Source of the DNA: Candidatus Pacearchaeota archaeon
GTDB lineage: Archaea; Nanobdellota; Nanobdellia; Pacearchaeales; GW2011-AR1
Assembly (NCBI GenBank): GCA_040879765.1
Contig: JBBDJQ010000002.1
Span: 5-64,004 of the forward strand
Direction of reading: 5' to 3'
DNA length: 64,000 nt
Below, in pieces: positions 11,151 to 57,254 of the stretch. The notes beneath the pieces are model-generated. The model saw only the letters and a program-made list of their open reading frames with translations, had not been told where the DNA came from and ran no database searches. The number at the start of each line of letters is the position of its first letter. Position 1 is the first letter of the stretch. The position numbers and the translations under genes are program-made.

Positions 11151-11513
11151 ATGATAAATAAGAGCATATTAAAAAAAGGCAGAAATAAAGGATTTAATGA
11201 CGAGGAGATTTATGAAGCCTACAAGATATTTTTTGGGACCCTTGTTTCTGAACAAAGATTAAAAATCATAAATTTCCTCAGAAAAGGCAAAAAAAGTGTT
11301 TCAGAGATAATGAAGGAACTAAGAATGAATCAAACATCAGTGTCTCACAATTTATCCAGATTAAAAAAATGTGGGTTCGTAAAATCAGAGATTAAAGGGA
11401 AATACCGTTATTATGAATTGGATAAAAAAACTATTCTGCCTTTAATGAATCTAATTAACAAACACATGCTGTCTAATTGTATCCACATATTAAACAATAA
11501 GAAAAAAGCATGA
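11151..11513 (+). CDS. ArsR/SmtB-family metalloregulatory transcriptional repressor
   Basis: HTH segment SVSEIMKELRMNQTSVSHNLSRLKKCGFV. Translationally coupled to copA. Confidence 0.7.
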   Translation: MINKSILKKGRNKGFNDEEIYEAYKIFFGTLVSEQRLKIINFLRKGKKSVSEIMKELRMNQTSVSHNLSRLKKCGFVKSEIKGKYRYYELDKKTILPLMNLINKHMLSNCIHILNNKKKA

Positions 11514-13711: not shown

Positions 13712-13768
13712 TTGATAAGGTTTTTGCAATTCAATATCTTTAAAAAACTCTTTTGTTTTATTTTGTTT

Positions 13769-14569
13769 ATGTATGTAATAAAGGCTTCAGGAAAAAAAGA
13801 GGAATTTAATTCAGATAAGATTTTTAGAACTTTAGAAAAGGCGGGGGCATCAAAGGAACTTGCCATGGAGATTGTTTCAAAAGTTCAAAAGAAAGTTCAT
13901 GATGGAACCACAACTAAAGAAATTTTAAATTCTGCACTGAGGTTATTGAGAAATAGAAATCCTGTAGTTTGTGAAAGATATGATTTGAAAAGAGCAATAA
14001 TGTCTCTTGGCCCAACAGGATTTCCATTCGAGAAATTTTTTTCAAGAATTTTAGAAAATTATGGTTATAAAACAGAAGTTGGACAAATTGTAAAAGGAAG
14101 AATAACCAGGCATGAGATTGATATAATCGCAGAAAAAAATTCTAAGAGATACATGGTTGAGTTGAAATATCACAATTCTCTAGGGATTTATACAAGATTG
14201 AAAACCGTGCTCTATGTTTATGCCAGATTTTTAGATTTAAAGGGAAAATTTGATCAGCCTTGGATTGCAACAAATACAAAATTATCTCATCAAGCAAGGA
14301 GATATGCTGATGGAATGCATATGAAAATAACAAGCTGGGAATACCCTGAAGGGAAATCTCTTTCGGAAATGATAGATTACAAAAAGCTTTATCCTGTTAC
14401 GATTCTAAAATCAGTTAATAAAAAAATAATTCACCAACTTTGTAAAGCGGATATGATGCTTTCTAAAGATTTATTGGATATTGATGAGAAAGAATTAATG
14501 AAAAGAACCAACCTCTCTCTAGAAATGGTCCAGAGAATTTTAAAAGAGGCTAGACAAGTTTGTGGTTAG
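13769..14569 (+). CDS. ATP-cone domain fused to a PD-(D/E)xK (Mrr-like restriction endonuclease) domain, with C-terminal HhH-like tail
   Basis: MYVIKASGKKEEFNSDKIF... matches the ATP-cone N-terminus. Nuclease core is RHEIDIIAEKNSKRYMVELKYH. The ORF track begins at 13712; I prefer the Met at 13769. Confidence 0.55.
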   Translation: MYVIKASGKKEEFNSDKIFRTLEKAGASKELAMEIVSKVQKKVHDGTTTKEILNSALRLLRNRNPVVCERYDLKRAIMSLGPTGFPFEKFFSRILENYGYKTEVGQIVKGRITRHEIDIIAEKNSKRYMVELKYHNSLGIYTRLKTVLYVYARFLDLKGKFDQPWIATNTKLSHQARRYADGMHMKITSWEYPEGKSLSEMIDYKKLYPVTILKSVNKKIIHQLCKADMMLSKDLLDIDEKELMKRTNLSLEMVQRILKEARQVCG

Positions 14570-14648
14570 GAGAAAACTAAGAAAAAAGTTTTCACTCAAA
14601 AATAATCATAAAACTTTAAATACTTTTTATTTCTAAAGAAACTAAATC

Positions 14649-14695
14649 GTACAATTTATTGTAATGTATAACTTATATGATACAATATATAGTAT
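14649..14695. promoter_or_regulatory. two tandem NrdR-box-like 16-bp palindromes (centres about 31 bp apart) overlapping a TATA-like element upstream of nrdR
   Basis: GTACAATTTATTGTAA and ATACAATATATAGTAT, compared with the NrdR box consensus acaCwAtATaTwGtgt. TTATATGA lies at about -30 from the ATG. Confidence 0.5.
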
Positions 14696-14707
14696 GGGAA
14701 AAGGATA

Positions 14708-15151
14708 ATGGATTGTCCATATTGCGCTAACAACACATCAAAAGTAACAAATAAGAGAGAAGCCCCTCAAGGAATAAGGAGAAGGAGGGAGTGTTTGAAA
14801 TGCAGCAAGAGATTTACAACATATGAAAAAGTAGATAGTGGAAAATTGTATGTTATAAAGAAGGATGATTCAAGACAGAAGTTTATTAGAGAAAAACTTG
14901 AAGCAGGGATTGAGAGGGCTTTCGAGAAAAGACCAACAAAAAAAGAAGATATAGAAAAAATGATAAGGGAAATTGAGGAACAAATAAGGAGAAAGGGAAA
15001 AAGAGAGATAAAAACTTCAACAATTGGAGAATTAGTTGCAAGAAAAATAAAGAAATTAGATAACGTTGCCTACATAAGGTTTGCTTCTGTTTACAGAGAT
15101 TTTCAAGACGTTAAAGATTTTTCTGAAGAATTAAGGGGGTTGGAAAAATAA
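14708..15151 (+). CDS. nrdR: NrdR transcriptional repressor (Zn ribbon + ATP cone)
   Basis: CPYC...CLKC zinc ribbon followed by an ATP cone. 147 aa. Confidence 0.85.
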   Translation: MDCPYCANNTSKVTNKREAPQGIRRRRECLKCSKRFTTYEKVDSGKLYVIKKDDSRQKFIREKLEAGIERAFEKRPTKKEDIEKMIREIEEQIRRKGKREIKTSTIGELVARKIKKLDNVAYIRFASVYRDFQDVKDFSEELRGLEK

Positions 15152-15152
15152 A

Positions 15153-17810
15153 ATGAATGATGTTGCACTTAAAGAGATAATTATAGCAGAAAGAATTCAA
15201 GCACAAAAAGGAAATCTCCCTGATTACGTTGAAGCTAGAGAATTTGAAGAAAGAGTTGGTGGAAATAGGAAATATGCTTTTGAAAAAAAATACTCTCACA
15301 GAAATGAATCTGGAGAGATTGTTGAAAGTCCTTCGGAAGCCATATATAGGATGGCGCTCACAATGGCAGAAGTTGAAGAAAGCTATGGTGCAACGCCTGA
15401 ACAAGTTGAACAGCATGCTGAAGATTTTTTTAATATAATTTCAAAAGAAAGGTTTTCTCCAGGAGGAAGAATATGGACTAATGCGGGGACAAAGATTAAA
15501 GGTTTGTTTAATTGTTATGTTCTTCCAGTTCATGATAGCATGGACAAAGATGAAGAAGGGAGTATTTATGATTCTGTTGCAAATGCTGCAATGATTCACA
15601 AGAATGGAGGAGGAACTGGATATAATTTTTCAGAGCTAAGACCAAGAGGTACTTTTGTTCAGAGCTCAAAAGGAATCGCTTCTGGACCAGTATCTTTCAT
15701 TGGACAATTTGATAAAGAAACTGAAATTATAAATTCTGGTAATCGTAGAGGTGCAAATATGGGGATTCTTGATGTTACTCATCCAGATATTTTAGATTTT
15801 ATTTATGCTAAATCTAAAAGGGGGGAAATGACTAATTTCAATGTTTCAATAGGTGCTTTTGATAGATTTATGGGAGCCGCAAGAGATAAAGAATTTTATG
15901 GGCTTGAATTTCCTGAAGGAAAGCCATTACATTATACTTCTCTTGAACAAATGGTCAGAAATATAGAAGAAAATAAACTTGGAGCATCGGGAGTTGGAGA
16001 GGAACCAAGACCAGCATCATTAAGACTTGGATCAAAAGAAATAATTCCAGGAAAAACAGAAGTTGTAGATTCATTTTCTGGTGAAGTTGCAGGAAGAGTT
16101 AATAAAGAAGGGAATGTTGAACTTTATGCCCCTTATGTTTTAGATAGGGTTGCTAAATTGGCACATGAAACTGCAGATCCGGGGATGATATTTCTAGATA
16201 AAATAAACAAGACAAATCCATTACCAAAACTTGGACCCATAAAAGCTACAAATCCTTGTGGAGAACAGCCTCTTCATCCATATGATGCATGCAACTTAGG
16301 GAGTACATTGCTTTCAAATTTTGTTATTGAGAATGAAAATGGAGAGAATGAAATTGACTATGATGGTTTAGAAGATACTGTAAGGATAGCTACAAGATTC
16401 ATGGATAATGTAAATGATGCAAATAAAGGTCCGATTCAAAAAGTTGAAGAAACGGTTAAAAGTCATAGAAGAATTGGAATGGGAGTTATGGGTTTAGCAG
16501 ACATGTTGATTGAAATGGGTGTTCAATATGATTCAGAAGAAGGACGAGATTTAGCAAGAGAAGTTATGGGCTTTCAAACAAATATTGCAAAAGAAACTTC
16601 GGTTAATTTAGCCAAAGAAAAAGGCGTCTTTCCCGCTTTTGAAGGAAGTGCTTACGATACTGGGAAAGAGGAAGACAGAGTCAGAAACATTGATAGAACA
16701 ACTATTGCACCAACTGGAACAATCTCTATGCTATATGATGTTTCTTCGGGAGTAGAACCAATCTTTTCGGTCTTGTGGACAAAACATATTAGGGGAGGAG
16801 ATGCCCTACAATATGTTCATCCTGTTTTTGAAAAAGAATGCAAAAAAAGAGGAATAGATATAGATAAGGTTATTCCATTAATAGAAGAAAATCAGGGGGG
16901 TGTTCAAGGAATAGAAATTATACCTGAAGATATGCAAAGACTTTTCAAAACTGCTCTTGATATTAAATATGAAGACCACATACTTATGCAGGCGGCCATC
17001 CAAGAAAAGGTTGATAATGCAGTTAGCAAAACTATAAACATGCCAAACTCAGCAACTATTGAGGATGTTAAAAGTGCATACATTATGGCTTGGGAAAATG
17101 ATTTGAAGGGGATAACTGTTTACAGAGATGGTTCAAAATCTGTTCAAGTTCTAACAACAGGACATGGAAATAAAAAAGAAGAAGTAATAGATGAAAATAT
17201 CCCTTCTGTAAACAATCCCATGAAAATTCCGAGCTTCATGCCTGCTTTTAAGATTAAACAAAATACTCCTTTTGGAAATATGCATTTAAAATTCATAATA
17301 GATCCTAAAAGAGATTATGCGCCCGTTGAAGTTTTTGGTAGTTTAGGAAATGCCGGAGAAGATGAAGCTGCAAACATGGAAGGACTTGGAAGATTAACTT
17401 CTCTCTGGTTAAGGAGTGGGGGCGGTTTAGAAGGAATTATTAGTCAATTAGAAGGAATTGGTTCTGGAAGGATGACGGTTACAAGAGATGGAGGAATACA
17501 ATCTTTAGAAATGGGTTTTGCAAGAGGTTTGCAAAAATTTGAAGCCATGAGAAAAAATTATAATATGGAAGCAATACTTACTGGAAAACTTGATTATAGC
17601 GAAGTTGAAGGGCAAGTTTCAGATTCATTAAGAACTAGAAATAAAATTGTTAATGGTAAGGATGATGTGGATAGTGAAGAATCTGAAGAAAAAACAAATG
17701 TCAAAAAAAGTGAAAGATGCCCAGACCCAGATGAAATTGGTTGTAAAGGAACATTAATTCAAGAAGAGGGTTGTTCAAAATGTCGTTCTTGCGGATATTC
17801 TAGATGTTAA
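15153..17810 (+). CDS. nrdJ: class II (adenosylcobalamin-dependent) ribonucleotide reductase
   Basis: NPCGEQPL active-site motif, 885 aa, C-terminal Cys tail (CPDPDEIGC...CSKCRSC). No N-terminal ATP cone. Confidence 0.7.
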   Translation: MNDVALKEIIIAERIQAQKGNLPDYVEAREFEERVGGNRKYAFEKKYSHRNESGEIVESPSEAIYRMALTMAEVEESYGATPEQVEQHAEDFFNIISKERFSPGGRIWTNAGTKIKGLFNCYVLPVHDSMDKDEEGSIYDSVANAAMIHKNGGGTGYNFSELRPRGTFVQSSKGIASGPVSFIGQFDKETEIINSGNRRGANMGILDVTHPDILDFIYAKSKRGEMTNFNVSIGAFDRFMGAARDKEFYGLEFPEGKPLHYTSLEQMVRNIEENKLGASGVGEEPRPASLRLGSKEIIPGKTEVVDSFSGEVAGRVNKEGNVELYAPYVLDRVAKLAHETADPGMIFLDKINKTNPLPKLGPIKATNPCGEQPLHPYDACNLGSTLLSNFVIENENGENEIDYDGLEDTVRIATRFMDNVNDANKGPIQKVEETVKSHRRIGMGVMGLADMLIEMGVQYDSEEGRDLAREVMGFQTNIAKETSVNLAKEKGVFPAFEGSAYDTGKEEDRVRNIDRTTIAPTGTISMLYDVSSGVEPIFSVLWTKHIRGGDALQYVHPVFEKECKKRGIDIDKVIPLIEENQGGVQGIEIIPEDMQRLFKTALDIKYEDHILMQAAIQEKVDNAVSKTINMPNSATIEDVKSAYIMAWENDLKGITVYRDGSKSVQVLTTGHGNKKEEVIDENIPSVNNPMKIPSFMPAFKIKQNTPFGNMHLKFIIDPKRDYAPVEVFGSLGNAGEDEAANMEGLGRLTSLWLRSGGGLEGIISQLEGIGSGRMTVTRDGGIQSLEMGFARGLQKFEAMRKNYNMEAILTGKLDYSEVEGQVSDSLRTRNKIVNGKDDVDSEESEEKTNVKKSERCPDPDEIGCKGTLIQEEGCSKCRSCGYSRC

Positions 17811-17860: not shown

Positions 17861-18394
17861 ATGGTGATTTTATCAGATAATGAAATAAAGAGATATATTG
17901 AAAAAGGAAAAATTGGGATTAGCCCATATGAAGAATCAAATGTTCAAGGAGCTTCTGTAGATTTTAGATTAGGGAGGGGTTTTTTGGTTCCTCCAAACTA
18001 TTATGGAGATTTTGCTAAAGAAGAAGGTATTGTCATTTCTTTGGATAGCAAGGTTAAATATGAGGAAGTTGATGATAGTGAAATCATTTTACCTCCCGGG
18101 CATTTTATTTTAGGGACTACTCTTGAAAAATTAACAATTCCGGATTTCCTTTGTGGAGAAGTTGGAGGAAAAAGTGGTGTTGCTAGAAAAGCCCTAAATA
18201 TAGAAAATGCGGGGCATTTAGGTCCTGGATTTGAAGGTCAAATTACTTTAGAATTATACAATGGATTGGCCTTTCCAATAAAACTAAAGGAAGGAGATGG
18301 GATTTGTCAAGTCCAATTCCATGAGTTATCTTCTGCAGCAACGAAAATTTATAGGGGTAAATTTCAAAATCAAGAAGGTCCAAAGGCTAATTGA
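17861..18394 (+). CDS. dcd: dCTP deaminase (dUTPase fold)
   Basis: Classic N-terminus ILSDNEIKRYI...GASVDFRLG. Confidence 0.8.
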   Translation: MVILSDNEIKRYIEKGKIGISPYEESNVQGASVDFRLGRGFLVPPNYYGDFAKEEGIVISLDSKVKYEEVDDSEIILPPGHFILGTTLEKLTIPDFLCGEVGGKSGVARKALNIENAGHLGPGFEGQITLELYNGLAFPIKLKEGDGICQVQFHELSSAATKIYRGKFQNQEGPKAN

Positions 18395-18443
18395 TATCTT
18401 AGAACACAACTAAATTTATAAATTCATCAAGATAAATTTTATA

Positions 18444-19064
18444 ATGTTACTTTCTGCTGTAAGAATTCTAGAGTTAAATAAAAAGCATAATCTTTTGGAA
18501 AATCTTTGTAAAAGAGAATCTGAAAATCCGGAGGGGGTTGGGATTGATTTAAGAGGGGGCAAGGTTTACAAAATAGAAGGAGATAGTTTTCTTGGTGCAG
18601 ATGAACATCCAATAACAAAAGAAAAGCTAGAGGGGTTAAGGCATTCTCCAAAAGTTAGTCTTGTTGCTAATTATGAGGATAATAAAGAAAGAGTAAGTAA
18701 ATTCACAATAAAACCAGGAGAATATTACCTCATTGAAACTATTGAAAAAGTTCATTCTCCAGCAGAAAAAGTAAAATATGATGATTTTTTCCCCGAGGGG
18801 TATTTGGTTCCAGTTATTTCTCCAAGAGTCTCACTTCAAAAAGGGGCTGTAGCACTTTATCATGCAAGGACCAATCCTGGCTATTCTGGACCTTTAATTT
18901 TTGGGCTAGCTAATAATGGAAAAGAAGATTTTACATTTGAACTTGGAGCAAGAATGTTTAGAATAGATTTTGAAGGAGTTATAGGGGACATTGATAGAAT
19001 TTATTCCGGACAGCATCAAGGAGGGAGAGTAACAAGTCAGGGAGAAAAAGAAAAACAAAATTAA
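18444..19064 (+). CDS. second, divergent dCTP deaminase/dUTPase-family paralog (possibly an archaeal-type dUTPase)
   Basis: GVGIDLRGG and other dUTPase-fold motifs. 206 aa. Confidence 0.5.
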   Translation: MLLSAVRILELNKKHNLLENLCKRESENPEGVGIDLRGGKVYKIEGDSFLGADEHPITKEKLEGLRHSPKVSLVANYEDNKERVSKFTIKPGEYYLIETIEKVHSPAEKVKYDDFFPEGYLVPVISPRVSLQKGAVALYHARTNPGYSGPLIFGLANNGKEDFTFELGARMFRIDFEGVIGDIDRIYSGQHQGGRVTSQGEKEKQN

Positions 19065-19065
19065 A

Positions 19066-20223
19066 ATGACAAGACAATATCTAGACCATTCAAGAGAAAT
19101 TCTTACTTCCCCTCTTTCAGAATACAAACACAATCAAAGAACTGGTATGGGGCATATTTCTTTATTTGGATATCAAAACCGACATGATTTAAGGGAAGGT
19201 TTTCCTCTTTTAACAACAAAGAAAACAAACTTTGATTTTATAGCTCATGAATTGGTTTTGTTTTTGCACGGAGACACAAATATAAAATATTTAGTTGATA
19301 ATGGGGTCCCTATTTGGAATGATAACGCTTTTGATTATAATTTGAGAGAAATGGTCGATGAAAGTATTTTTCCTGAATCTACTTTGGAGAAAAGATCAAG
19401 AGATTGGTATTCAGCAAAAGAAGAATATGTTCAGAGAATAAAAGAGGATGAAGAATTTGCTGAAAGATGGGGAGAACTTGGTCCAGTTTATGGTTCTCAA
19501 TGGGTCCATTGGCCTTTCTTTAAACAAACTGGTAAAAAAGATAGTGAAGGTCAAGAACTTTATGTTAGAGATCCAGAAGGAATAAATCAGATTGATAGAA
19601 CTATAGAAAAACTCGTTAAGAACCCAACAGCGAAAAGTAATCTTGTTTCTGCCTGGAATCCTCAAGAAGTTCCAAACATGGCTTTACCTCCATGTCACAC
19701 AATGTTTCAAGTTAATTCAAATGGAGAAGATTTAGATTTACAGCTTTACCAAAGAAGTTGTGATATGTTCTTAGGAGTTCCCTTTAACATTGCAAGTTAT
19801 GCCCTTATGACTCAAATAATAGCCGACCAAGCTGGATTAAATCCTAGGCATTTTGTCCACACTTTTGGGGATGTTCATTTTTATTGTGCAGATGGAGAAA
19901 GAGCAAAGTGGTATAGGGACAATTTAGATAAATTAAAGTTTGAAATTAAAGATGCTCCTTGGAGATGGGGAGGGAGTATTAAAGATGTTGTTGATTGGAT
20001 AAATAAAGAAGCCCCTTTAGAAGTTGAAAAAGATGGAACTGAAAGAAAAGGGAAAGACAGACAAGACCATGTTACTGCAATCCTAACCCAAATGCAAAGA
20101 GAACCGAGGGAATTACCTAGAGTGAAAATATCAAACAAACCTTATCGTGAGCTTGAAAGAAATGATTTTGAATTAATTGGTTATGATCCTCATAAAGGGA
20201 TTCTAAGATCTATGGCTGTTTAA
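19066..20223 (+). CDS. thyA: thymidylate synthase ThyA, with large insertions (385 aa)
   Basis: DRTGTG-like, SAWNPQEV, PPCH catalytic Cys region, QLYQRSCD. About 120 extra residues relative to bacterial ThyA. Confidence 0.85.
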   Translation: MTRQYLDHSREILTSPLSEYKHNQRTGMGHISLFGYQNRHDLREGFPLLTTKKTNFDFIAHELVLFLHGDTNIKYLVDNGVPIWNDNAFDYNLREMVDESIFPESTLEKRSRDWYSAKEEYVQRIKEDEEFAERWGELGPVYGSQWVHWPFFKQTGKKDSEGQELYVRDPEGINQIDRTIEKLVKNPTAKSNLVSAWNPQEVPNMALPPCHTMFQVNSNGEDLDLQLYQRSCDMFLGVPFNIASYALMTQIIADQAGLNPRHFVHTFGDVHFYCADGERAKWYRDNLDKLKFEIKDAPWRWGGSIKDVVDWINKEAPLEVEKDGTERKGKDRQDHVTAILTQMQREPRELPRVKISNKPYRELERNDFELIGYDPHKGILRSMAV

Positions 20224-20726
20224 TTTCTTTGATTTATTTCATAAAATCCACTTGAAGGATTTACTCTTGGAGTAATTCCTCTTGATAAATCATTTAACGG
20301 GATTTCGACAGATTTACTTGGGAAAGTAGGTTCTGCTAAAGTTACTAAATCTCTTTGAGAATTATAATCTAAAAAAAGAGCAATATGCAATCTTGGATTT
20401 TCTATTTGGATGGATTCTGGAAGAACTCTTGAATCATAGCCAATTATAACTTCGCCCCTAACTTGTTTTAAAAAATAGTCTAAATTTTGATAAACTTCAA
20501 AATCCCTGAAAGGGGTTTTGAAATCCACCCTTAAAGCAAAATCACTCAGGAAAGTTGCAAAAAGAGAATCATTAAATATCAATCCGTCTCTTTTTGTTGA
20601 TTTTGGAAAAGATTGAAAAATTTTCTGTTGACTAATTTCATGTCCTTGATTTCTCAATAACCCCTGTAATGTTGAAGGAACACACCAGTCCTTTTCTTCT
20701 GGCAATGAAACATCGTAGCACCTCAT
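20220..20726 (-). CDS. putative papain-like (C39-like) cysteine peptidase domain protein
   Basis: Candidate Cys (DWCVPSTLQGLL), His (RLHIALFLDY) and Asp (DLVTLAEP) in the order expected for C39-like peptidases. Weak call. Confidence 0.3.
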   Translation of the reverse strand: MRCYDVSLPEEKDWCVPSTLQGLLRNQGHEISQQKIFQSFPKSTKRDGLIFNDSLFATFLSDFALRVDFKTPFRDFEVYQNLDYFLKQVRGEVIIGYDSRVLPESIQIENPRLHIALFLDYNSQRDLVTLAEPTFPSKSVEIPLNDLSRGITPRVNPSSGFYEINQRN

Positions 20727-20812
20727 ATAAAAAAAATCACTTCTCTTTTATTTAAGGATTTCTATAAACTAAAATATACATATGTTTAAAAATTTTAAAA
20801 TTAATAATTTTT

Positions 20813-21334
20813 ATGGATTTGTCAATAATTGTTGCTTTTGATGAAAATTTTGTTATAGGAAATGATAAGGATATTCCTTGGAGAATGGATAAAGAGGGAA
20901 GAGAAAAATATTCCTTAGATATGCAAAGATTCGCTAGCCTCACAACAGGACATCCCGTAATTTCAGGAAAAGTAACTTATTTTTCAGTTCCAAGAAAATT
21001 TAGACCTTTGGACAATAGGCAAAACATAATTGTTACCTCGACCACTCCAGAGTCTATGCTTGAGGAAGAAAGAGAAAAAGGAGAGGTTTATACTGCTCAA
21101 AGTTTTGAAGAAGCTTTACAAATTGCAGAACAATTTGACACCCTTGCTTACGCAATTGGAGGAGAAGGAATTTACAGTGCTGCCTTTGAACATGCAACAA
21201 GGATGGATTTAACAAGAATAAAAGAGTCTTTCGAAGGAAATGTTTATTTTCCCCAACCAAACTGGGATAATTGGAAATTAACTGCAAAGCAAATTCATGA
21301 AGACTTTGATTTTGAAACTTATGTCAGAAAATAA
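20813..21334 (+). CDS. folA: dihydrofolate reductase
   Basis: IIVA...IGNDKDIPW and other DHFR motifs. 173 aa. Confidence 0.8.
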   Translation: MDLSIIVAFDENFVIGNDKDIPWRMDKEGREKYSLDMQRFASLTTGHPVISGKVTYFSVPRKFRPLDNRQNIIVTSTTPESMLEEEREKGEVYTAQSFEEALQIAEQFDTLAYAIGGEGIYSAAFEHATRMDLTRIKESFEGNVYFPQPNWDNWKLTAKQIHEDFDFETYVRK

Positions 21335-26728: not shown

Positions 26729-29700
26729 ATGCAATCACATCATGTAAGAAAAAAAGTTGGGGAAATAACATTTGCTTTGCTTAATCCAGAGCAGATAAAG
26801 AAAATTTCATCAGCAAAAATAGTCACTCCGGAACTTTATGATATTGATGGATATCCTGTTGATGGTGGTTTGATGGATTTAAGACTTGGAGCCATAGACC
26901 CTGGAGTTAGATGTAGAACTTGTGGAGGAAGATTAAAAGAATGTTTAGGTCATCCTGGAAGAATTGAACTTGCAAGACCAATAATGCATTTGAAATATAT
27001 CCCTTTGATAGAGATGGGTTTGAGATCTTTCTGCAATGATTGTGGAAAATTAATGCTTGCTGATAAAGACTTAGAAAAATATGGTCCAAGTGAAAGAGTC
27101 AAAAAAGCCAAAGATTCTAAGAAATGCCCACATTGCAATGTTGCGAATGAAAAAATAAAATTGGACAAACCTACAACTTTCTACATTGGAAAGAAAAGGC
27201 TATTCCCAACAAAAATAAGGGAGCTTGTTTCTAATATTCCTGATGATGAATTAAGAAAAGCAGGAATTAATCCAGAAACTTGTAGACTAGAATGGGCTAT
27301 CTTAACTTTGCTTTTGGTTCCTTCAGTTACAATAAGGCCAAGCATTATTTTAGAATCTGGAGAAAGAAGTGAAGATGATTTAACACACAAGCTTTCAGAT
27401 ATCATAAGAGCCAATCAAAGGCTTTGGGAGAACTTAAACGCCGGAGCTCCAGAGGTTATTATAGAAGATCTTTGGGATTTATTACAATATCATGTCACAA
27501 CTTTCTTTGATAACACTGTTACAAGAATTCCTCCTGCAAGACACAGAAGCGGTCAACCTTTGAAAACAATTACAGAAAGAATAAAAGGTAAGGAGGGAAG
27601 AATAAGAAAGAATCTTGCTGGAAAGAGAGTTAATTATTCTGCAAGAACAGTTATTTCCCCAGACCCATCAATCAAGATTAATGAAGTTGGCGTCCCTTAT
27701 GAAATTGCGAAAATTGTAACCGTTGCTGAAACAGTGAATGATCTTAATATGGATAAATTAAAAGACATAATTAATCAGGGAGAAAATTATCCTGGAGCAA
27801 ACTATGTAATAAGACCTGATGGAAAGAGAAAAAAGATTTCTGAAGATTTGAAGGAAGAAATAATTGAAGAATTAGTTCCAGGCTATAAGGTTGAAAGACA
27901 TTTGCAGGATGGGGACATTGTTTTATTCAATCGTCATCCAAGTTTGCACAAAGGTTCTTTAATGGCCCACTATGTAAGAGTTTTACCTGGAAGAACTTTC
28001 AGATTACATTCAGCAGTCACATTTCCTTATAACGCAGATTTTGACGGAGACGAAATGAATATCCACTCCCCCCAAACAGAAGAAGCAAGAGCAGAAGCAA
28101 AAGTTTTACTTGATGTTAAAAATAATTTAATCTCTCCAAAGAACAATACAAACTTTTTAGGATTTGATGAAGATGCAATAACTGGAAATTACCTTCTTGG
28201 GAAGAGGGAATTTTCAAGAGAAGATGCAAACCAATTATTATACAAATCTGGAATAGATAAGGAAATTTCAAAGAAAATTATTTCTGGGAAGGAATTATTT
28301 TCTGAAATTATTCCAAAAATTAATTTTACAAATAAATCCTTAACAATAAAAGACGGAGAAATAAAATCAGGGAACATTGATAAAACAATCTTTGGTGAAG
28401 AAAATGGAGAGTTGATAAAAGAGCTTGACAGAGTTTTAGGAAGAGATGAAACTATAAATAAAATAGAAAAAGTATTCAACCTGGGAGTAAATTATCTTAG
28501 TGAATCTGGAATAACTGTTTCTATTCAGGATTTAAATCTTAATAGTAATGCCTTGAACGAAAGTGAAAACATAATTAAGAAAGCTGAAAAGAAGACTGAA
28601 GAAATTATAAAAACCTATGAAGAAGAAGATTTTGAAGTCATACCTGGAAAAACAAAGGACGAATCTAGGGAAACAAAAATTCTTCAAGTTTTGAATGAAG
28701 TTAGAACCAAGATTGGAGAGATGGTTAAGCAAGAATTCCATGAAGATAGTCCCGTAAATCACATGATTATTTCTGGAGGCGGGGGAAACATATTAAATAT
28801 TACACAGATTGCATGTTGTGTTGGTCAGCAGGCTCTTTGGGGTAAAAGAATTGAAATTGGATACAACAAAAGAACTCTTTCATTCTTCAAGAAAGGGGAA
28901 CTTTCGCCTGCGTCAAGAGGATTCATACATAGTTCATTCATAAAGGGTTTGAGACCTGATGAATTTTTCTTTGGGGCAATAACCGGAAGAGATTCACTTA
29001 TGGATACTGCTTTGAGAACTCCTAAATCTGGTTACCTTTATAGAAGATTGGCTAATGCAATCCAGGATTTAAGAAGAGAATATGATGGAACAATCAGAGA
29101 TAGTAATAACAATGTAATTCAATTCAAATATGGTTACGATGATTTAGATGTTTCTACATTGCATTTAAATAAAACTATGGATCCTGGAGAAGCCATAGGA
29201 ATTATTACAGCACAATCATTCGGAGAACCTTCAACACAGATGGCTCTTAACGTTTTCCACTTTGCTGGTGTTCAAGAAATGCAGATTACTGCAGGGTTGC
29301 CGAGATTAATTGAAATTTTTGATGCTAGAAGAAAACCTTCCTCGCCTAAGATGGAAATTTACTTGAACAAAGAATTCAACAATGAAAAAGATGCCAAGAT
29401 TCTTGCAGAAAAAATTAAGGAAGTGATGGTTAAAGAGATACTTTCCGAAATTAATATTGACTTTAATGATAAAAAGATTGAAATTAAAATAGATAAGAAA
29501 GCATTAAGGTCAGTACATATTTCAACTAAAAAAATTGTTGACACTCTTTCAGATAAAGGATTCAAGGCTAAAGAAAAAGGAGATTCTGTTGTTATAAGTT
29601 CTTCAGAAAGTACCTTCAAAGAACTTTATGCATTGAAAGAAAAAATTAAGGAGATTATAATTTCTGGAGTTAAAGGAATAAAACAAGTTATGGTTTTGAA

Positions 29701-30196
29701 GAAAGGAGGAGATTTTGTAATTATAACTCTTGGAACCAACTTAAAAAAAGTTCTTGAGATGAAAGAAGTCAATGGGAACAAAATTTTGTCCAATGATTTC
29801 CACGAAGTTGCAGAAGTCTTTGGGATTGAAGCTGCAAGGCAATTAATAATTGATGAAATTGAAAAAGTTCTTAACACACAGGGATTAGATATTAATAGAA
29901 GGCACATAGAGTTGGTTTCAGACGCCATAAGTAATACTGGAGAAATAAAAGGAATTACAAGAATGGGAATAATTTCTCAAAAGGCTTCTGTTTTAGCGAG
30001 GGCAACTTTTGAAACTCCAGTAAAGCAATTCGTTAACGCTTCGATAAAAGGAAGCAAGGACAATTTATCTAGCGTTATTGAAAACATAATCTTGAATCAA
30101 CCAGTTCCTGTAGGGACAGGACTACCTGGATTGGCAGTCAAGATAACTGGAGAGTTAGTTAAGAAAGGCGAAAAGAAAATTTCTTCTAAAAAATAA
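26729..30196 (+). CDS. rpoA: DNA-directed RNA polymerase subunit A, with A' and A'' fused in one 1155-aa ORF
   Basis: N-terminal Zn motifs, catalytic NADFDGDEMN, bridge helix, then the trigger loop (ITAQSFGEPSTQMALNVFHFAGV), which is normally in A'', continues in the same frame. Confidence 0.85.
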   Translation: MQSHHVRKKVGEITFALLNPEQIKKISSAKIVTPELYDIDGYPVDGGLMDLRLGAIDPGVRCRTCGGRLKECLGHPGRIELARPIMHLKYIPLIEMGLRSFCNDCGKLMLADKDLEKYGPSERVKKAKDSKKCPHCNVANEKIKLDKPTTFYIGKKRLFPTKIRELVSNIPDDELRKAGINPETCRLEWAILTLLLVPSVTIRPSIILESGERSEDDLTHKLSDIIRANQRLWENLNAGAPEVIIEDLWDLLQYHVTTFFDNTVTRIPPARHRSGQPLKTITERIKGKEGRIRKNLAGKRVNYSARTVISPDPSIKINEVGVPYEIAKIVTVAETVNDLNMDKLKDIINQGENYPGANYVIRPDGKRKKISEDLKEEIIEELVPGYKVERHLQDGDIVLFNRHPSLHKGSLMAHYVRVLPGRTFRLHSAVTFPYNADFDGDEMNIHSPQTEEARAEAKVLLDVKNNLISPKNNTNFLGFDEDAITGNYLLGKREFSREDANQLLYKSGIDKEISKKIISGKELFSEIIPKINFTNKSLTIKDGEIKSGNIDKTIFGEENGELIKELDRVLGRDETINKIEKVFNLGVNYLSESGITVSIQDLNLNSNALNESENIIKKAEKKTEEIIKTYEEEDFEVIPGKTKDESRETKILQVLNEVRTKIGEMVKQEFHEDSPVNHMIISGGGGNILNITQIACCVGQQALWGKRIEIGYNKRTLSFFKKGELSPASRGFIHSSFIKGLRPDEFFFGAITGRDSLMDTALRTPKSGYLYRRLANAIQDLRREYDGTIRDSNNNVIQFKYGYDDLDVSTLHLNKTMDPGEAIGIITAQSFGEPSTQMALNVFHFAGVQEMQITAGLPRLIEIFDARRKPSSPKMEIYLNKEFNNEKDAKILAEKIKEVMVKEILSEINIDFNDKKIEIKIDKKALRSVHISTKKIVDTLSDKGFKAKEKGDSVVISSSESTFKELYALKEKIKEIIISGVKGIKQVMVLKKGGDFVIITLGTNLKKVLEMKEVNGNKILSNDFHEVAEVFGIEAARQLIIDEIEKVLNTQGLDINRRHIELVSDAISNTGEIKGITRMGIISQKASVLARATFETPVKQFVNASIKGSKDNLSSVIENIILNQPVPVGTGLPGLAVKITGELVKKGEKKISSKK

Positions 30197-50948: not shown

Positions 50949-51067
50949 GCGTGGTTAGTTTAGTGGTAGAACAGGACGTTGCCAATACCAGTTTTTTAAA
51001 AAAAGTCGGCGCTCAAAAAGAGCAAAGCAAAAACGTTCAAACGCGGGTTCGATTCCCGCATCGCGCA
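50949..51067 (+). tRNA. tRNA-Gly (anticodon GCC) with an approximately 48-nt intron at or near the canonical 37/38 position
   Basis: Acceptor GCGTGGT/ATCGCGC, D-arm GTTT-AGTGGTA-GAAC, anticodon stem GGACG...CGTTC (the 3' half lies after the intron), loop TTGCCAA, T-arm GCGGGTTCGATTCCCGC, T-tract afterwards. Confidence 0.6.
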
Positions 51068-57053: not shown

Positions 57054-57254
57054 CCCCGTGTAGCTTAGTGGTAAAGCGTCTGGCTGTAGATTGCAAGGAC
57101 ACCTAACGGTTTCCTTTGCGTAACCTTCCTTTGAGTTAGTCTTTAGGGAAATCTAGCATGGACATTCCGTTAGGAATTGGATGAAATGTGAAAAGTCGAT
57201 GGAATTCAGGGTGCAGAACCCGGAAGACCCCAAGTTCGAATCTTGGCACGGGGA
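57054..57254 (+). tRNA. tRNA-Tyr (anticodon GTA) with an approximately 129-nt intron
   Basis: 5' half: CCCCGTG-TA-GCTT-AGTGGTA-AAGC-G-TCTGG-CTGTAGA. 3' half: CCGGA-AGACC-CCAAGTTCGAATCTTGG-CACGGGG-A. The intron contains a CCTAACGG...CCGTTAGG stem. Confidence 0.6.

What the first reader, a model, noticed from the sequence alone, without database searches (positions are those of the whole stretch)
14649..15151. NrdR repressor with tandem NrdR-box palindromes in an archaeal genome
NrdR (Zn ribbon + ATP cone) is mainly a bacterial regulator. Here it is encoded 2 nt upstream of nrdJ. Its own upstream region carries two 16-bp palindromes, GTACAATTTATTGTAA and ATACAATATATAGTAT. The second matches the bacterial NrdR-box consensus acaCwAtATaTwGtgt at 14 of 16 positions. 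Their centres are about 31 bp apart, which is the usual tandem spacing, and they overlap a TATA-like TTATATGA at about -30. This layout suggests autorepression of an nrdR-nrdJ operon by promoter occlusion in an archaeon. It may reflect horizontal acquisition of the whole regulon from bacteria.
Basis: partly seen in the sequence, partly recalled or inferred. Interest (0 to 1): 0.6.

Follow-up and report, generated by a model that had tools for sequence, protein, structure and literature searches.

The report
NrdR operator on an archaeal promoter
A tiny archaeon (Pacearchaeota) carries the usual bacterial-type NrdR repressor, which senses the cell's supply of DNA building blocks, with its usual pair of binding sites in front of its own nrdR-nrdJ operon. 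This is a real and well-conserved example of a system already known to occur in archaea, so it is ordinary rather than surprising.

Summary
nrdR lies at 14708-15151 and scores 176.6 bits against TIGR00244 (cutoff 124.65). It sits 1 nt before nrdJ (15153-17810). Two 16-bp NrdR boxes lie upstream, at 14649-14664 and 14680-14695, separated by the canonical 15-bp linker. With a matrix built from relatives, these are the two best-scoring sites in the 64-kb window. A pair like this is expected by chance about 6e-6 times per 64 kb.

The contig is archaeal (Ca. Pacearchaeota). The same layout recurs in 68 archaeal loci: BRE/TATA, 33-35 nt, box 1, 31-32 nt, box 2, a variable gap, then the nrdR ATG. A blind DNA-pattern scan of metagenomes gave 120 hits. 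In 118 of them nrdR followed; the other two ran off their contigs.

The conserved TATA box is TTTAAATA at 14615-14622, upstream of both boxes. It is not the linker's TTATATGA. The boxes therefore sit at or just after the predicted transcription start, which suggests NrdR blocks RNA polymerase rather than TBP/TFB. No boxes precede dcd, thyA or folA. This archaeal NrdR clade is about 49% identical both to a small Bacillota sample and to E. coli NrdR, so no recent bacterial donor is visible. Published work already reports NrdR in 22% of archaeal genomes.

Verdict: a new member of a known kind, of low to moderate interest.

The parts
14607..14614 (+). BRE-like element CATAAAAC, directly 5' of the TATA box
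   Evidence: The upstream motif [TC]ATAAA[TC]N is conserved next to the TATA box in most of the 68 archaeal loci. Other promoters in the window have the same type of element. Its function is inferred.
14615..14622 (+). TATA box TTTAAATA, the predicted nrdR-nrdJ promoter
   Evidence: It matches the consensus exactly. A TATA box with at most 1 mismatch is found in 64 of 68 loci. In 55 of those 64 it starts 33-35 nt before box 1. In this window it starts 34 nt before box 1.
14641..14649 (+). Predicted transcription start zone (inferred, not measured)
   Evidence: Genes in the window that appear leaderless have a TATA-like element starting 26-33 nt before the ATG. Applying that distance to 14615 gives about 14641-14648.
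14649..14664 (+). NrdR box 1, GTACAATTTATTGTAA
   Evidence: It differs by 1 base from the clade consensus for box 1, ATACAATTTATTGTAA. It is the second-best matrix hit in the window. It has 5 of the 6 conserved positions.
14665..14679 (+). 15-bp linker TGTATAACTTATATG.
   Evidence: The length is canonical at 15-16 bp. The sequence is not conserved among relatives. Its best TATA-like match has 2 mismatches.
14680..14695 (+). NrdR box 2, ATACAATATATAGTAT
   Evidence: It has 2 mismatches to the bacterial consensus and is unique in the window. It scores 17-20 bits on the archaeal matrix. All 6 conserved positions are present.
14708..15151 (+). nrdR, encoding a repressor with a Zn ribbon and an ATP-cone (147 aa)
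   Evidence: C3, C6, C29, C32, R17, R24-27 and R35 are invariant in 67 archaeal sequences.
15153..17810 (+). nrdJ, a class II (B12-dependent) ribonucleotide reductase with no ATP-cone. Co-transcription with nrdR is inferred.
   Evidence: The gap after the nrdR stop codon is 1 nt.

Best explanation
This is the self-controlled nrdR-nrdJ operon of a Pacearchaeota (DPANN) archaeon.

**Proposed mechanism (inferred).**
1. Transcription starts from an archaeal BRE/TATA promoter (14607-14622), about 26-33 nt downstream of the TATA start.
2. The two NrdR boxes (14649-14664 and 14680-14695) begin at, or a few nucleotides after, that start. They occupy roughly the first 50 bp of a leader about 60 nt long.
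3. When dATP rises relative to ATP, ATP-cone-loaded NrdR is expected to take up its DNA-binding tetramer form. It would then clamp both boxes on one face of the helix, three turns apart.
4. Bound there, it sits inside the region RNA polymerase must occupy. It would block polymerase recruitment, promoter opening or clearance, without displacing TBP/TFB.
5. This would shut off synthesis of both the repressor and the only ribonucleotide reductase in the window.

**Shown here:** the gene identities, the box sequences and their spacing, their statistical uniqueness, and the conservation of the whole module with its fixed distance to the TATA box.

**Inferred:** the start-site position, co-transcription of nrdR and nrdJ, nucleotide control, and the step of transcription that is blocked.
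For: **Family membership.** The protein exceeds the NrdR equivalog cutoff and aligns over its full length to solved NrdR structures. The Zn-binding cysteines and the R17, RRRR and R35 positions are invariant in 67 archaeal sequences. These align with the S. coelicolor DNA-contact residues R17, R26-29 and R37.

**Operator.** It has the canonical 16+15+16 bp layout. The boxes are the top two matrix hits in the window. The chance expectation for such a pair is about 6e-6 per 64 kb.

**Conservation in 68 archaeal loci.**
- The box-to-box distance is 31 (29 loci) or 32 (39 loci), with no other value.
- The distance from TATA to box 1 is 33-35 nt in 55 of 64 loci.
- The distance from box 2 to the ATG varies from -2 to 190 nt.

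**Blind scan.** A metagenome scan with the TATA plus box pattern returned 120 hits. nrdR follows within 900 nt in 118. The other two hits are cut by the end of the contig.

**Promoter type.** Genes in the window carry the same kind of TATA element 26-33 nt before their ATG.

**Downstream gene.** In relatives the gene after nrdR is always a ribonucleotide reductase, either nrdJ or nrdD-nrdG.

Against: - There are no transcript or binding data for any DPANN archaeon. The start site is inferred from TATA spacing alone.
- Position 15 is Asn in this protein. It is Asp in 54 of 67 relatives, and Asp in S. coelicolor, where D15 lies near the bases.
- This genome looks mostly leaderless, so it is unclear how a message with a 60-nt leader is translated.
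- A weak TATA-like stretch in the linker could act as a second promoter.
- The blind scan required the TATA box at a fixed spacing. It therefore cannot reveal targets with a different geometry.
Confidence: 0.8

Rival explanations
1. The working promoter is the TATA-like TTATATGA in the linker (14673-14680). NrdR on the flanking boxes would then repress by keeping TBP/TFB off it, giving a nearly leaderless message.
For: In 13 relatives box 2 ends 5 nt before the ATG. In 11 of these 13 the linker carries a good TATA (1 mismatch or fewer) 29 nt before the ATG. This geometry therefore exists in the lineage, alongside the upstream TATA.
Against: In the window the linker's best TATA-like match has 2 mismatches and starts 35-36 nt before the ATG. 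The genome's usual distance is 26-33 nt. Linker sequence is not conserved in general. The upstream BRE/TATA is conserved at a fixed distance from box 1 in 55 of 64 loci.
Confidence: 0.12
2. The palindromes are chance products of AT-rich intergenic DNA and have no function.
For: The loose six-position regex is as frequent as chance predicts in this genome.
Against: The full-length boxes are the two best hits in 128 kb of scanned strand. The expected number of such pairs is about 6e-6. The same pair is present in 67 other archaeal loci and 120 metagenome contigs.
Confidence: 0.01
3. The boxes act as RNA hairpins in the 5' leader, affecting translation or stability, rather than as DNA operators.
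For: By the promoter assignment both boxes would be transcribed, and each is self-complementary.
Against: The conservation is base-specific, not pair-preserving. In box 1, pair 5-12 is complementary in 23 of 66 sequences, pair 8-9 in 15 of 66 and pair 1-16 in 9 of 66. In box 2, variation at position 7 is mostly uncompensated. The sequence matches the DNA motif bound by NrdR in bacteria.
Confidence: 0.03
4. On origin: the whole nrdR-operator-nrdJ cassette was recently transferred from a bacterium.
For: NrdR is far commoner in bacteria (77% of genomes) than in archaea (22%). Transfers of nrdR-nrdAB into haloarchaea are documented.
Against: Archaeal NrdRs form a tight group with median 72% identity. 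They are equally distant from the small Bacillota sample (11 sequences) and from E. coli, at 49% each, which is about the distance between Bacillota and E. coli (47%). The promoter is of the genome-typical archaeal type. The reductase after nrdR differs between relatives (nrdJ, nrdD or RTPR-like) while nrdR and its operator stay constant. An ancient acquisition is not excluded.
Confidence: 0.1

Closest known systems
Streptomyces coelicolor nrdRJ operon with its NrdR operator (structures 7P37, 7P3F, 7P3Q)
   Same: The gene order is the same: nrdR, then a class II nrdJ. Two 16-bp boxes sit in front of nrdR with a 15-bp linker. The repressor has the same Zn-ribbon plus ATP-cone build, with the Arg residues conserved.
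   Different: The host machinery is archaeal (BRE/TATA, TBP/TFB), not sigma-factor based. The protein is 147 aa and lacks the long C-terminal tail. Position 15 is Asn instead of Asp. The box flanks read ATAC...GTAT rather than ACAC...GTGT.
Escherichia coli NrdR (9FVR, 9FZF, 9GEX, 9FXK)
   Same: This is the best-matching solved structure (E 6e-41, about 49% identity over the full length).
   Different: E. coli nrdR is not the first gene of a reductase operon. It controls three separate operons.
Haloarchaeal nrdR-nrdAB and nrdR-nrdBA operons acquired from bacteria (Lundin et al. 2010, PMC3019208)
   Same: nrdR leads a ribonucleotide reductase operon in an archaeon.
   Different: Those operons are class I and plasmid- or secondary-chromosome-borne. 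They are attributed to specific bacterial donors. The operon here is class II or III and is widespread across Pacearchaeota, Woesearchaeota and Nanoarchaeota, with no identifiable donor.
Archaeal repressors that bind at or just downstream of the start site and block RNA polymerase recruitment (MDR1, LrpA and Phr; recalled from memory, not tested here)
   Same: The operator lies downstream of the TATA box and over the predicted start site. This predicts the same step of inhibition.
   Different: These are unrelated protein folds. NrdR's mode of action on an archaeal promoter has not been studied.

Membership tests
NrdR repressor (TIGR00244 / COG1327) | N-terminal Zn ribbon with two CxxC motifs | tested here: met
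   PF22811 matches residues 1-40 (E 1e-15). C3, C6, C29 and C32 are invariant in 67 archaeal sequences.
NrdR repressor (TIGR00244 / COG1327) | ATP-cone domain following the Zn ribbon | tested here: met
   PF03477 matches residues 48-134 (E 6e-21). K51, K52, K63 and R124 are invariant.
NrdR repressor (TIGR00244 / COG1327) | Whole-protein score above the curated equivalog cutoff | tested here: met
   176.6 bits against a cutoff of 124.65.
NrdR repressor (TIGR00244 / COG1327) | DNA-contacting residues (S. coelicolor R12, D15, R17, R26-29, R37) | tested here: inconclusive
   K12, R17, R24-27 and R35 are present. Position 15 is Asn here, and Asp in 54 of 67 relatives.
NrdR operator | Two 16-bp partially palindromic boxes with conserved C4 A6 A8 T9 T11 G13 | tested here: met
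   Box 2 has 6 of 6 and box 1 has 5 of 6 (T8). T8 is the commonest base at that position of box 1 in the clade.
NrdR operator | A 15-16 bp linker, so that the boxes are about 3 helical turns apart | tested here: met
   The linker is 15 bp here. The box-to-box distance is 31 or 32 in all 68 loci.
NrdR operator | Located in the promoter region of a ribonucleotide reductase operon | tested here: met
   It lies upstream of nrdR-nrdJ, 34 nt after the TATA start.
NrdR regulon function | ATP/dATP-dependent oligomer switch, DNA binding and repression | not testable with these tools
   This needs protein biochemistry or transcript data.

The most novel reading that the evidence does not exclude
Across the Pacearchaeota, Woesearchaeota and Nanoarchaeota, the NrdR operator may have been welded to an archaeal BRE/TATA promoter at one fixed register, with box 1 starting 33-35 nt after the TATA start. 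A bacterial-family nucleotide sensor would then gate RNA polymerase entry on a TBP/TFB promoter. In one sub-lineage a second TATA box sits inside the linker, so a single NrdR tetramer would silence two promoters at once. As far as I could find, this would be the first defined promoter and operator geometry for NrdR in any archaeon. A 2026 review I could not read may already cover it.
Probability: 0.5. Interest if true: 0.4.

Novelty: new member of a known kind. Interest (0 to 1): 0.3.

Why it matters
The main value is as a correction and a clean example. NrdR with a canonical operator is a standard feature of a large DPANN lineage, not an oddity of one genome. The fixed distance between TATA box and operator gives a concrete, testable model for how this nucleotide-sensing repressor works with archaeal transcription machinery. 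The enzyme in this window has no ATP-cone, so transcriptional control by NrdR may be its only dATP feedback. There is also a practical point. The loose regular expression used in large-scale NrdR box surveys finds chance-level matches in AT-rich genomes, so archaeal surveys need full-length matrices.

Tried and rejected
- **More operators in the window.** I scanned for further sites before dcd, the dcd-like gene, thyA, folA and the upstream ATP-cone/Mrr gene. None was found. dcd and the dcd-like gene have their own TATA-like elements 30 and 29 nt before the ATG.
- **More operators in relatives.** I scanned 490 kb of related archaeal loci. Only two unpaired sites turned up, both inside reductase coding sequence (L007:4957, L013:4651).
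- **Published loose regex.** It does not discriminate here.
- **Riboswitch in the long leaders.** Relatives with 66-190 nt between box 2 and the ATG gave no Rfam family hit.
- **Naming the nearest non-archaeal NrdRs.** The representative library and cluster look-up named only one (Zixibacteria). This is not enough for a phylogeny.
- **Three loci labelled Patescibacteria or Saccharibacteria.** I checked whether they are really archaeal from neighbouring genes. The result was not diagnostic.
- **2026 MMBR review on NrdR.** The library does not hold it.
- **Exact look-up of the window's NrdR in the contig index.** It found nothing.

Full report
**What is in the sequence.** The ORF at 14708-15151 encodes a 147-aa protein with an NrdR-type Zn ribbon (PF22811) and an ATP-cone (PF03477). 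It scores 176.6 bits against the NrdR equivalog TIGR00244, whose cutoff is 124.65. It aligns end to end with solved E. coli NrdR (9fvr, E 6e-41) and S. coelicolor NrdR (7p37). One nucleotide after its stop codon begins nrdJ (15153-17810). This is a class II reductase with a TSCPD domain and no ATP-cone. Next come dcd (17861-18394), a dcd/dut-like gene (18444-19064), thyA (19066-20223) and folA (20813-21334).

Box 1 is GTACAATTTATTGTAA at 14649-14664. Box 2 is ATACAATATATAGTAT at 14680-14695. The linker is 15 bp.

**The organism.** The window encodes Rpb2- and Rpb1-type RNA polymerase subunits, a thermosome and aEF-1 alpha. It has two tRNA genes with long introns. GC content is about 32%. The NrdR protein is identical to an NCBI record from a Candidatus Pacearchaeota MAG. 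The genome is therefore archaeal, in the DPANN group (Nanobdellati).

**Is it more than chance?** Box 2 is the only site in the window within 2 mismatches of the bacterial consensus. I built a weight matrix from 66 box 2 sites of other archaeal genomes. With it, box 2 (20.4 and 17.1 bits on the two strands) and box 1 (8.1 bits) are the two best sites on both strands of the 64 kb. The next site scores 6.8 bits. Under a composition model, a pair of this quality at 31/32 spacing is expected about 6e-6 times per 64 kb.

The regex used in a published survey, C.[AT].[AT][AT].[AT].G, hits 310 times. It gives 3 pairs at 31/32 spacing against 3.6 expected. The two other pairs lie in coding sequence and do not resemble NrdR boxes.

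**Comparative evidence.** A scan of species-representative genomes returned 69 archaeal loci, from Pacearchaeota, Woesearchaeota and Nanoarchaeota MAGs. Their NrdR is 53-76% identical to the window's. The scan also returned 11 Bacillota loci at about 50% identity.

Upstream of nrdR nearly all the archaeal loci share one layout:
- a BRE-like [TC]ATAAAT followed by TTTAAATA;
- then box 1, consensus ATACAATTTATTGTAA, with an invariant left half and a looser right half;
- then box 2, consensus ATACAA[TC]ATATTGTAT;
- then a variable stretch before the ATG.

Over 68 loci the box-to-box distance is 31 (29 loci) or 32 (39 loci) and never anything else. The TATA-to-box 1 distance is 33-35 nt in 55 of the 64 loci that have a good TATA. 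The distance from box 2 to the ATG ranges from -2 to 190 nt.

nrdR follows within 900 nt in 118 of them. The remaining two are cut by the contig end.

The gene after nrdR is always a reductase, but its class varies. Most loci have nrdJ. L001, L008, L017, L032, L045 and L068 have an ATP-cone-bearing nrdD, followed by nrdG where this was checked (L001, L017). L052 has an RTPR-like enzyme. No partnered extra operator was found in 490 kb of these loci.

**Promoter assignment.** In the window the conserved element is CATAAAAC-TTTAAATA at 14607-14622, which is 34 nt before box 1. Many genes in the window carry the same kind of TATA element 26-33 nt before their ATG. Examples are the genes starting at 11151, 58587, 32930, 51483 and 20813. 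The genome therefore looks largely leaderless, with transcription starting roughly 26-33 nt after the TATA start.

Applied to nrdR, this puts the start at about 14641-14648. Box 1 then begins at about +2 to +9, and box 2 about 31 nt further on. Both lie in a leader of about 60 nt.

It is a weak TATA match and is not conserved. One subset is of interest. In 13 relatives box 2 ends 5 nt before the ATG. In 11 of these the linker carries a good TATA 29 nt before the ATG, in addition to the upstream TATA.

**Mechanism.** The steps that are shown and those that are inferred need to be kept apart.

*Shown:*
- The protein meets the NrdR family criteria.
- The Zn-binding cysteines and the Arg17, Arg24-27 and Arg35 positions are invariant in 67 archaeal sequences. 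These correspond to the S. coelicolor DNA-contact residues.
- The operator has the canonical 16+15+16 build, known to bind an NrdR tetramer loaded with ATP and dATP.

*Inferred:*
- When dATP accumulates, NrdR binds both boxes and sits within the region RNA polymerase covers at an archaeal promoter.
- It then blocks polymerase recruitment or promoter clearance, rather than TBP/TFB binding.
- This represses both nrdR and nrdJ.

This is how archaeal repressors with operators downstream of the TATA box are known to act (general knowledge, not tested here). In bacteria NrdR boxes likewise lie upstream of and overlapping the start site.

The boxes are unlikely to act as RNA hairpins. Their conservation is base-specific, and many palindromic pairs are broken, especially in box 1.

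One difference in this protein is Asn at position 15. Asp is found there in 54 of 67 relatives and in S. coelicolor.

**Regulon and origin.** Within the window the operator is unique, so dcd, the dcd-like gene, thyA and folA are not predicted targets. dcd and the dcd-like gene each have their own TATA-like element 30 and 29 nt before the ATG.

Archaeal NrdRs share a median 72% identity with each other. They are 49% identical to both the sampled Bacillota and E. coli, and Bacillota and E. coli share 47%. The bacterial sample is small: 11 Bacillota sequences plus E. coli. In a library of 1.8 billion representatives, the nearest relatives outside the clade are about 50-54% identical. Only one of them could be named, a Zixibacteria protein.

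This fits long residence in the lineage, or an ancient transfer. It does not fit a recent import of a ready-made bacterial cassette. The promoter is entirely archaeal, and the reductase behind nrdR has been exchanged repeatedly. I could not build a properly rooted and labelled phylogeny.

**Comparison with what is known.**
- NrdR is reported in 77% of bacterial and 22% of archaeal genomes (PMC13584703).
- It is said to control 'a few archaeal RNRs' (PMC12051234).
- Haloarchaeal nrdR-nrdAB operons of bacterial origin were described in 2010 (PMC3019208).
- The published box surveys I could read analysed bacterial genomes.
- I found no paper linking NrdR with DPANN lineages.
- I could not read the 2026 MMBR review.

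The closest characterised system is the S. coelicolor nrdRJ operon. It has the same gene order and the same operator build.

**Verdict.** The promoter geometry is corrected, the wider regulon is not found, recent horizontal transfer is not indicated, and the rarity premise is overstated. This is a new, well-conserved member of a known kind. Interest is 0.3.

Noticed in passing
window 13712-14569 (+): The gene directly upstream of the nrdR promoter encodes an ATP-cone fused to an Mrr-type restriction endonuclease domain and an AF1548-like C-terminal domain. The same neighbour precedes nrdR in L010, L012, L016 and L065. No NrdR box precedes it.
   Followed up: partly
window 26729-30196 (+): RNA polymerase subunit A is a single 1155-aa ORF covering Rpb1 domains 1-5. 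From memory, most archaea split this subunit into A' and A''. No separate A'' gene follows.
   Followed up: no
window 50949-51067 and 57054-57254 (+): Rfam finds two tRNA genes of 119 and 201 nt, which implies long introns. ARAGORN missed both.
   Followed up: no
window 17861-21334: A deoxynucleotide cluster follows nrdJ: dcd, a divergent dcd/dut-like gene, an unusually long ThyA (385 aa against a 266-position profile) and a bacterial-type DHFR. The cluster is interrupted by an unknown 168-aa gene on the minus strand (20220-20726) with no Pfam match.
   Followed up: partly
L003, L005, L031, L038, L040, L044, L052, L057, L060, L061, L069 (linker before box 2): In relatives where box 2 ends 5 nt before the ATG, the linker holds a second TATA box 29 nt before the ATG. 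These loci may therefore have two promoters under one operator.
   Followed up: partly
L004, L006, L020, L023, L024, L026, L029, L037, L041, L042 (linker): A Shine-Dalgarno-like AAGAGGT recurs inside the linker, which is supposed to be non-conserved. No start codon follows it. The window lacks this motif.
   Followed up: no
L020, L039, L052: These contigs are labelled Saccharibacteria or Patescibacteria. They carry the archaeal BRE/TATA plus operator and an NrdR 66-72% identical to the window's. They are probably mis-binned DPANN contigs. Neighbouring genes were not diagnostic.
   Followed up: partly
L014, L016, L027, L029, L036, L051, L063: These loci have 66-190 nt between box 2 and the nrdR ATG and match no Rfam family. 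By eye, the L016 leader contains a long inverted repeat.
   Followed up: partly
window, whole: Many genes have a TATA-like element 26-33 nt before the ATG, which suggests mostly leaderless messages. The roughly 60-nt nrdR leader is then an exception.
   Followed up: partly
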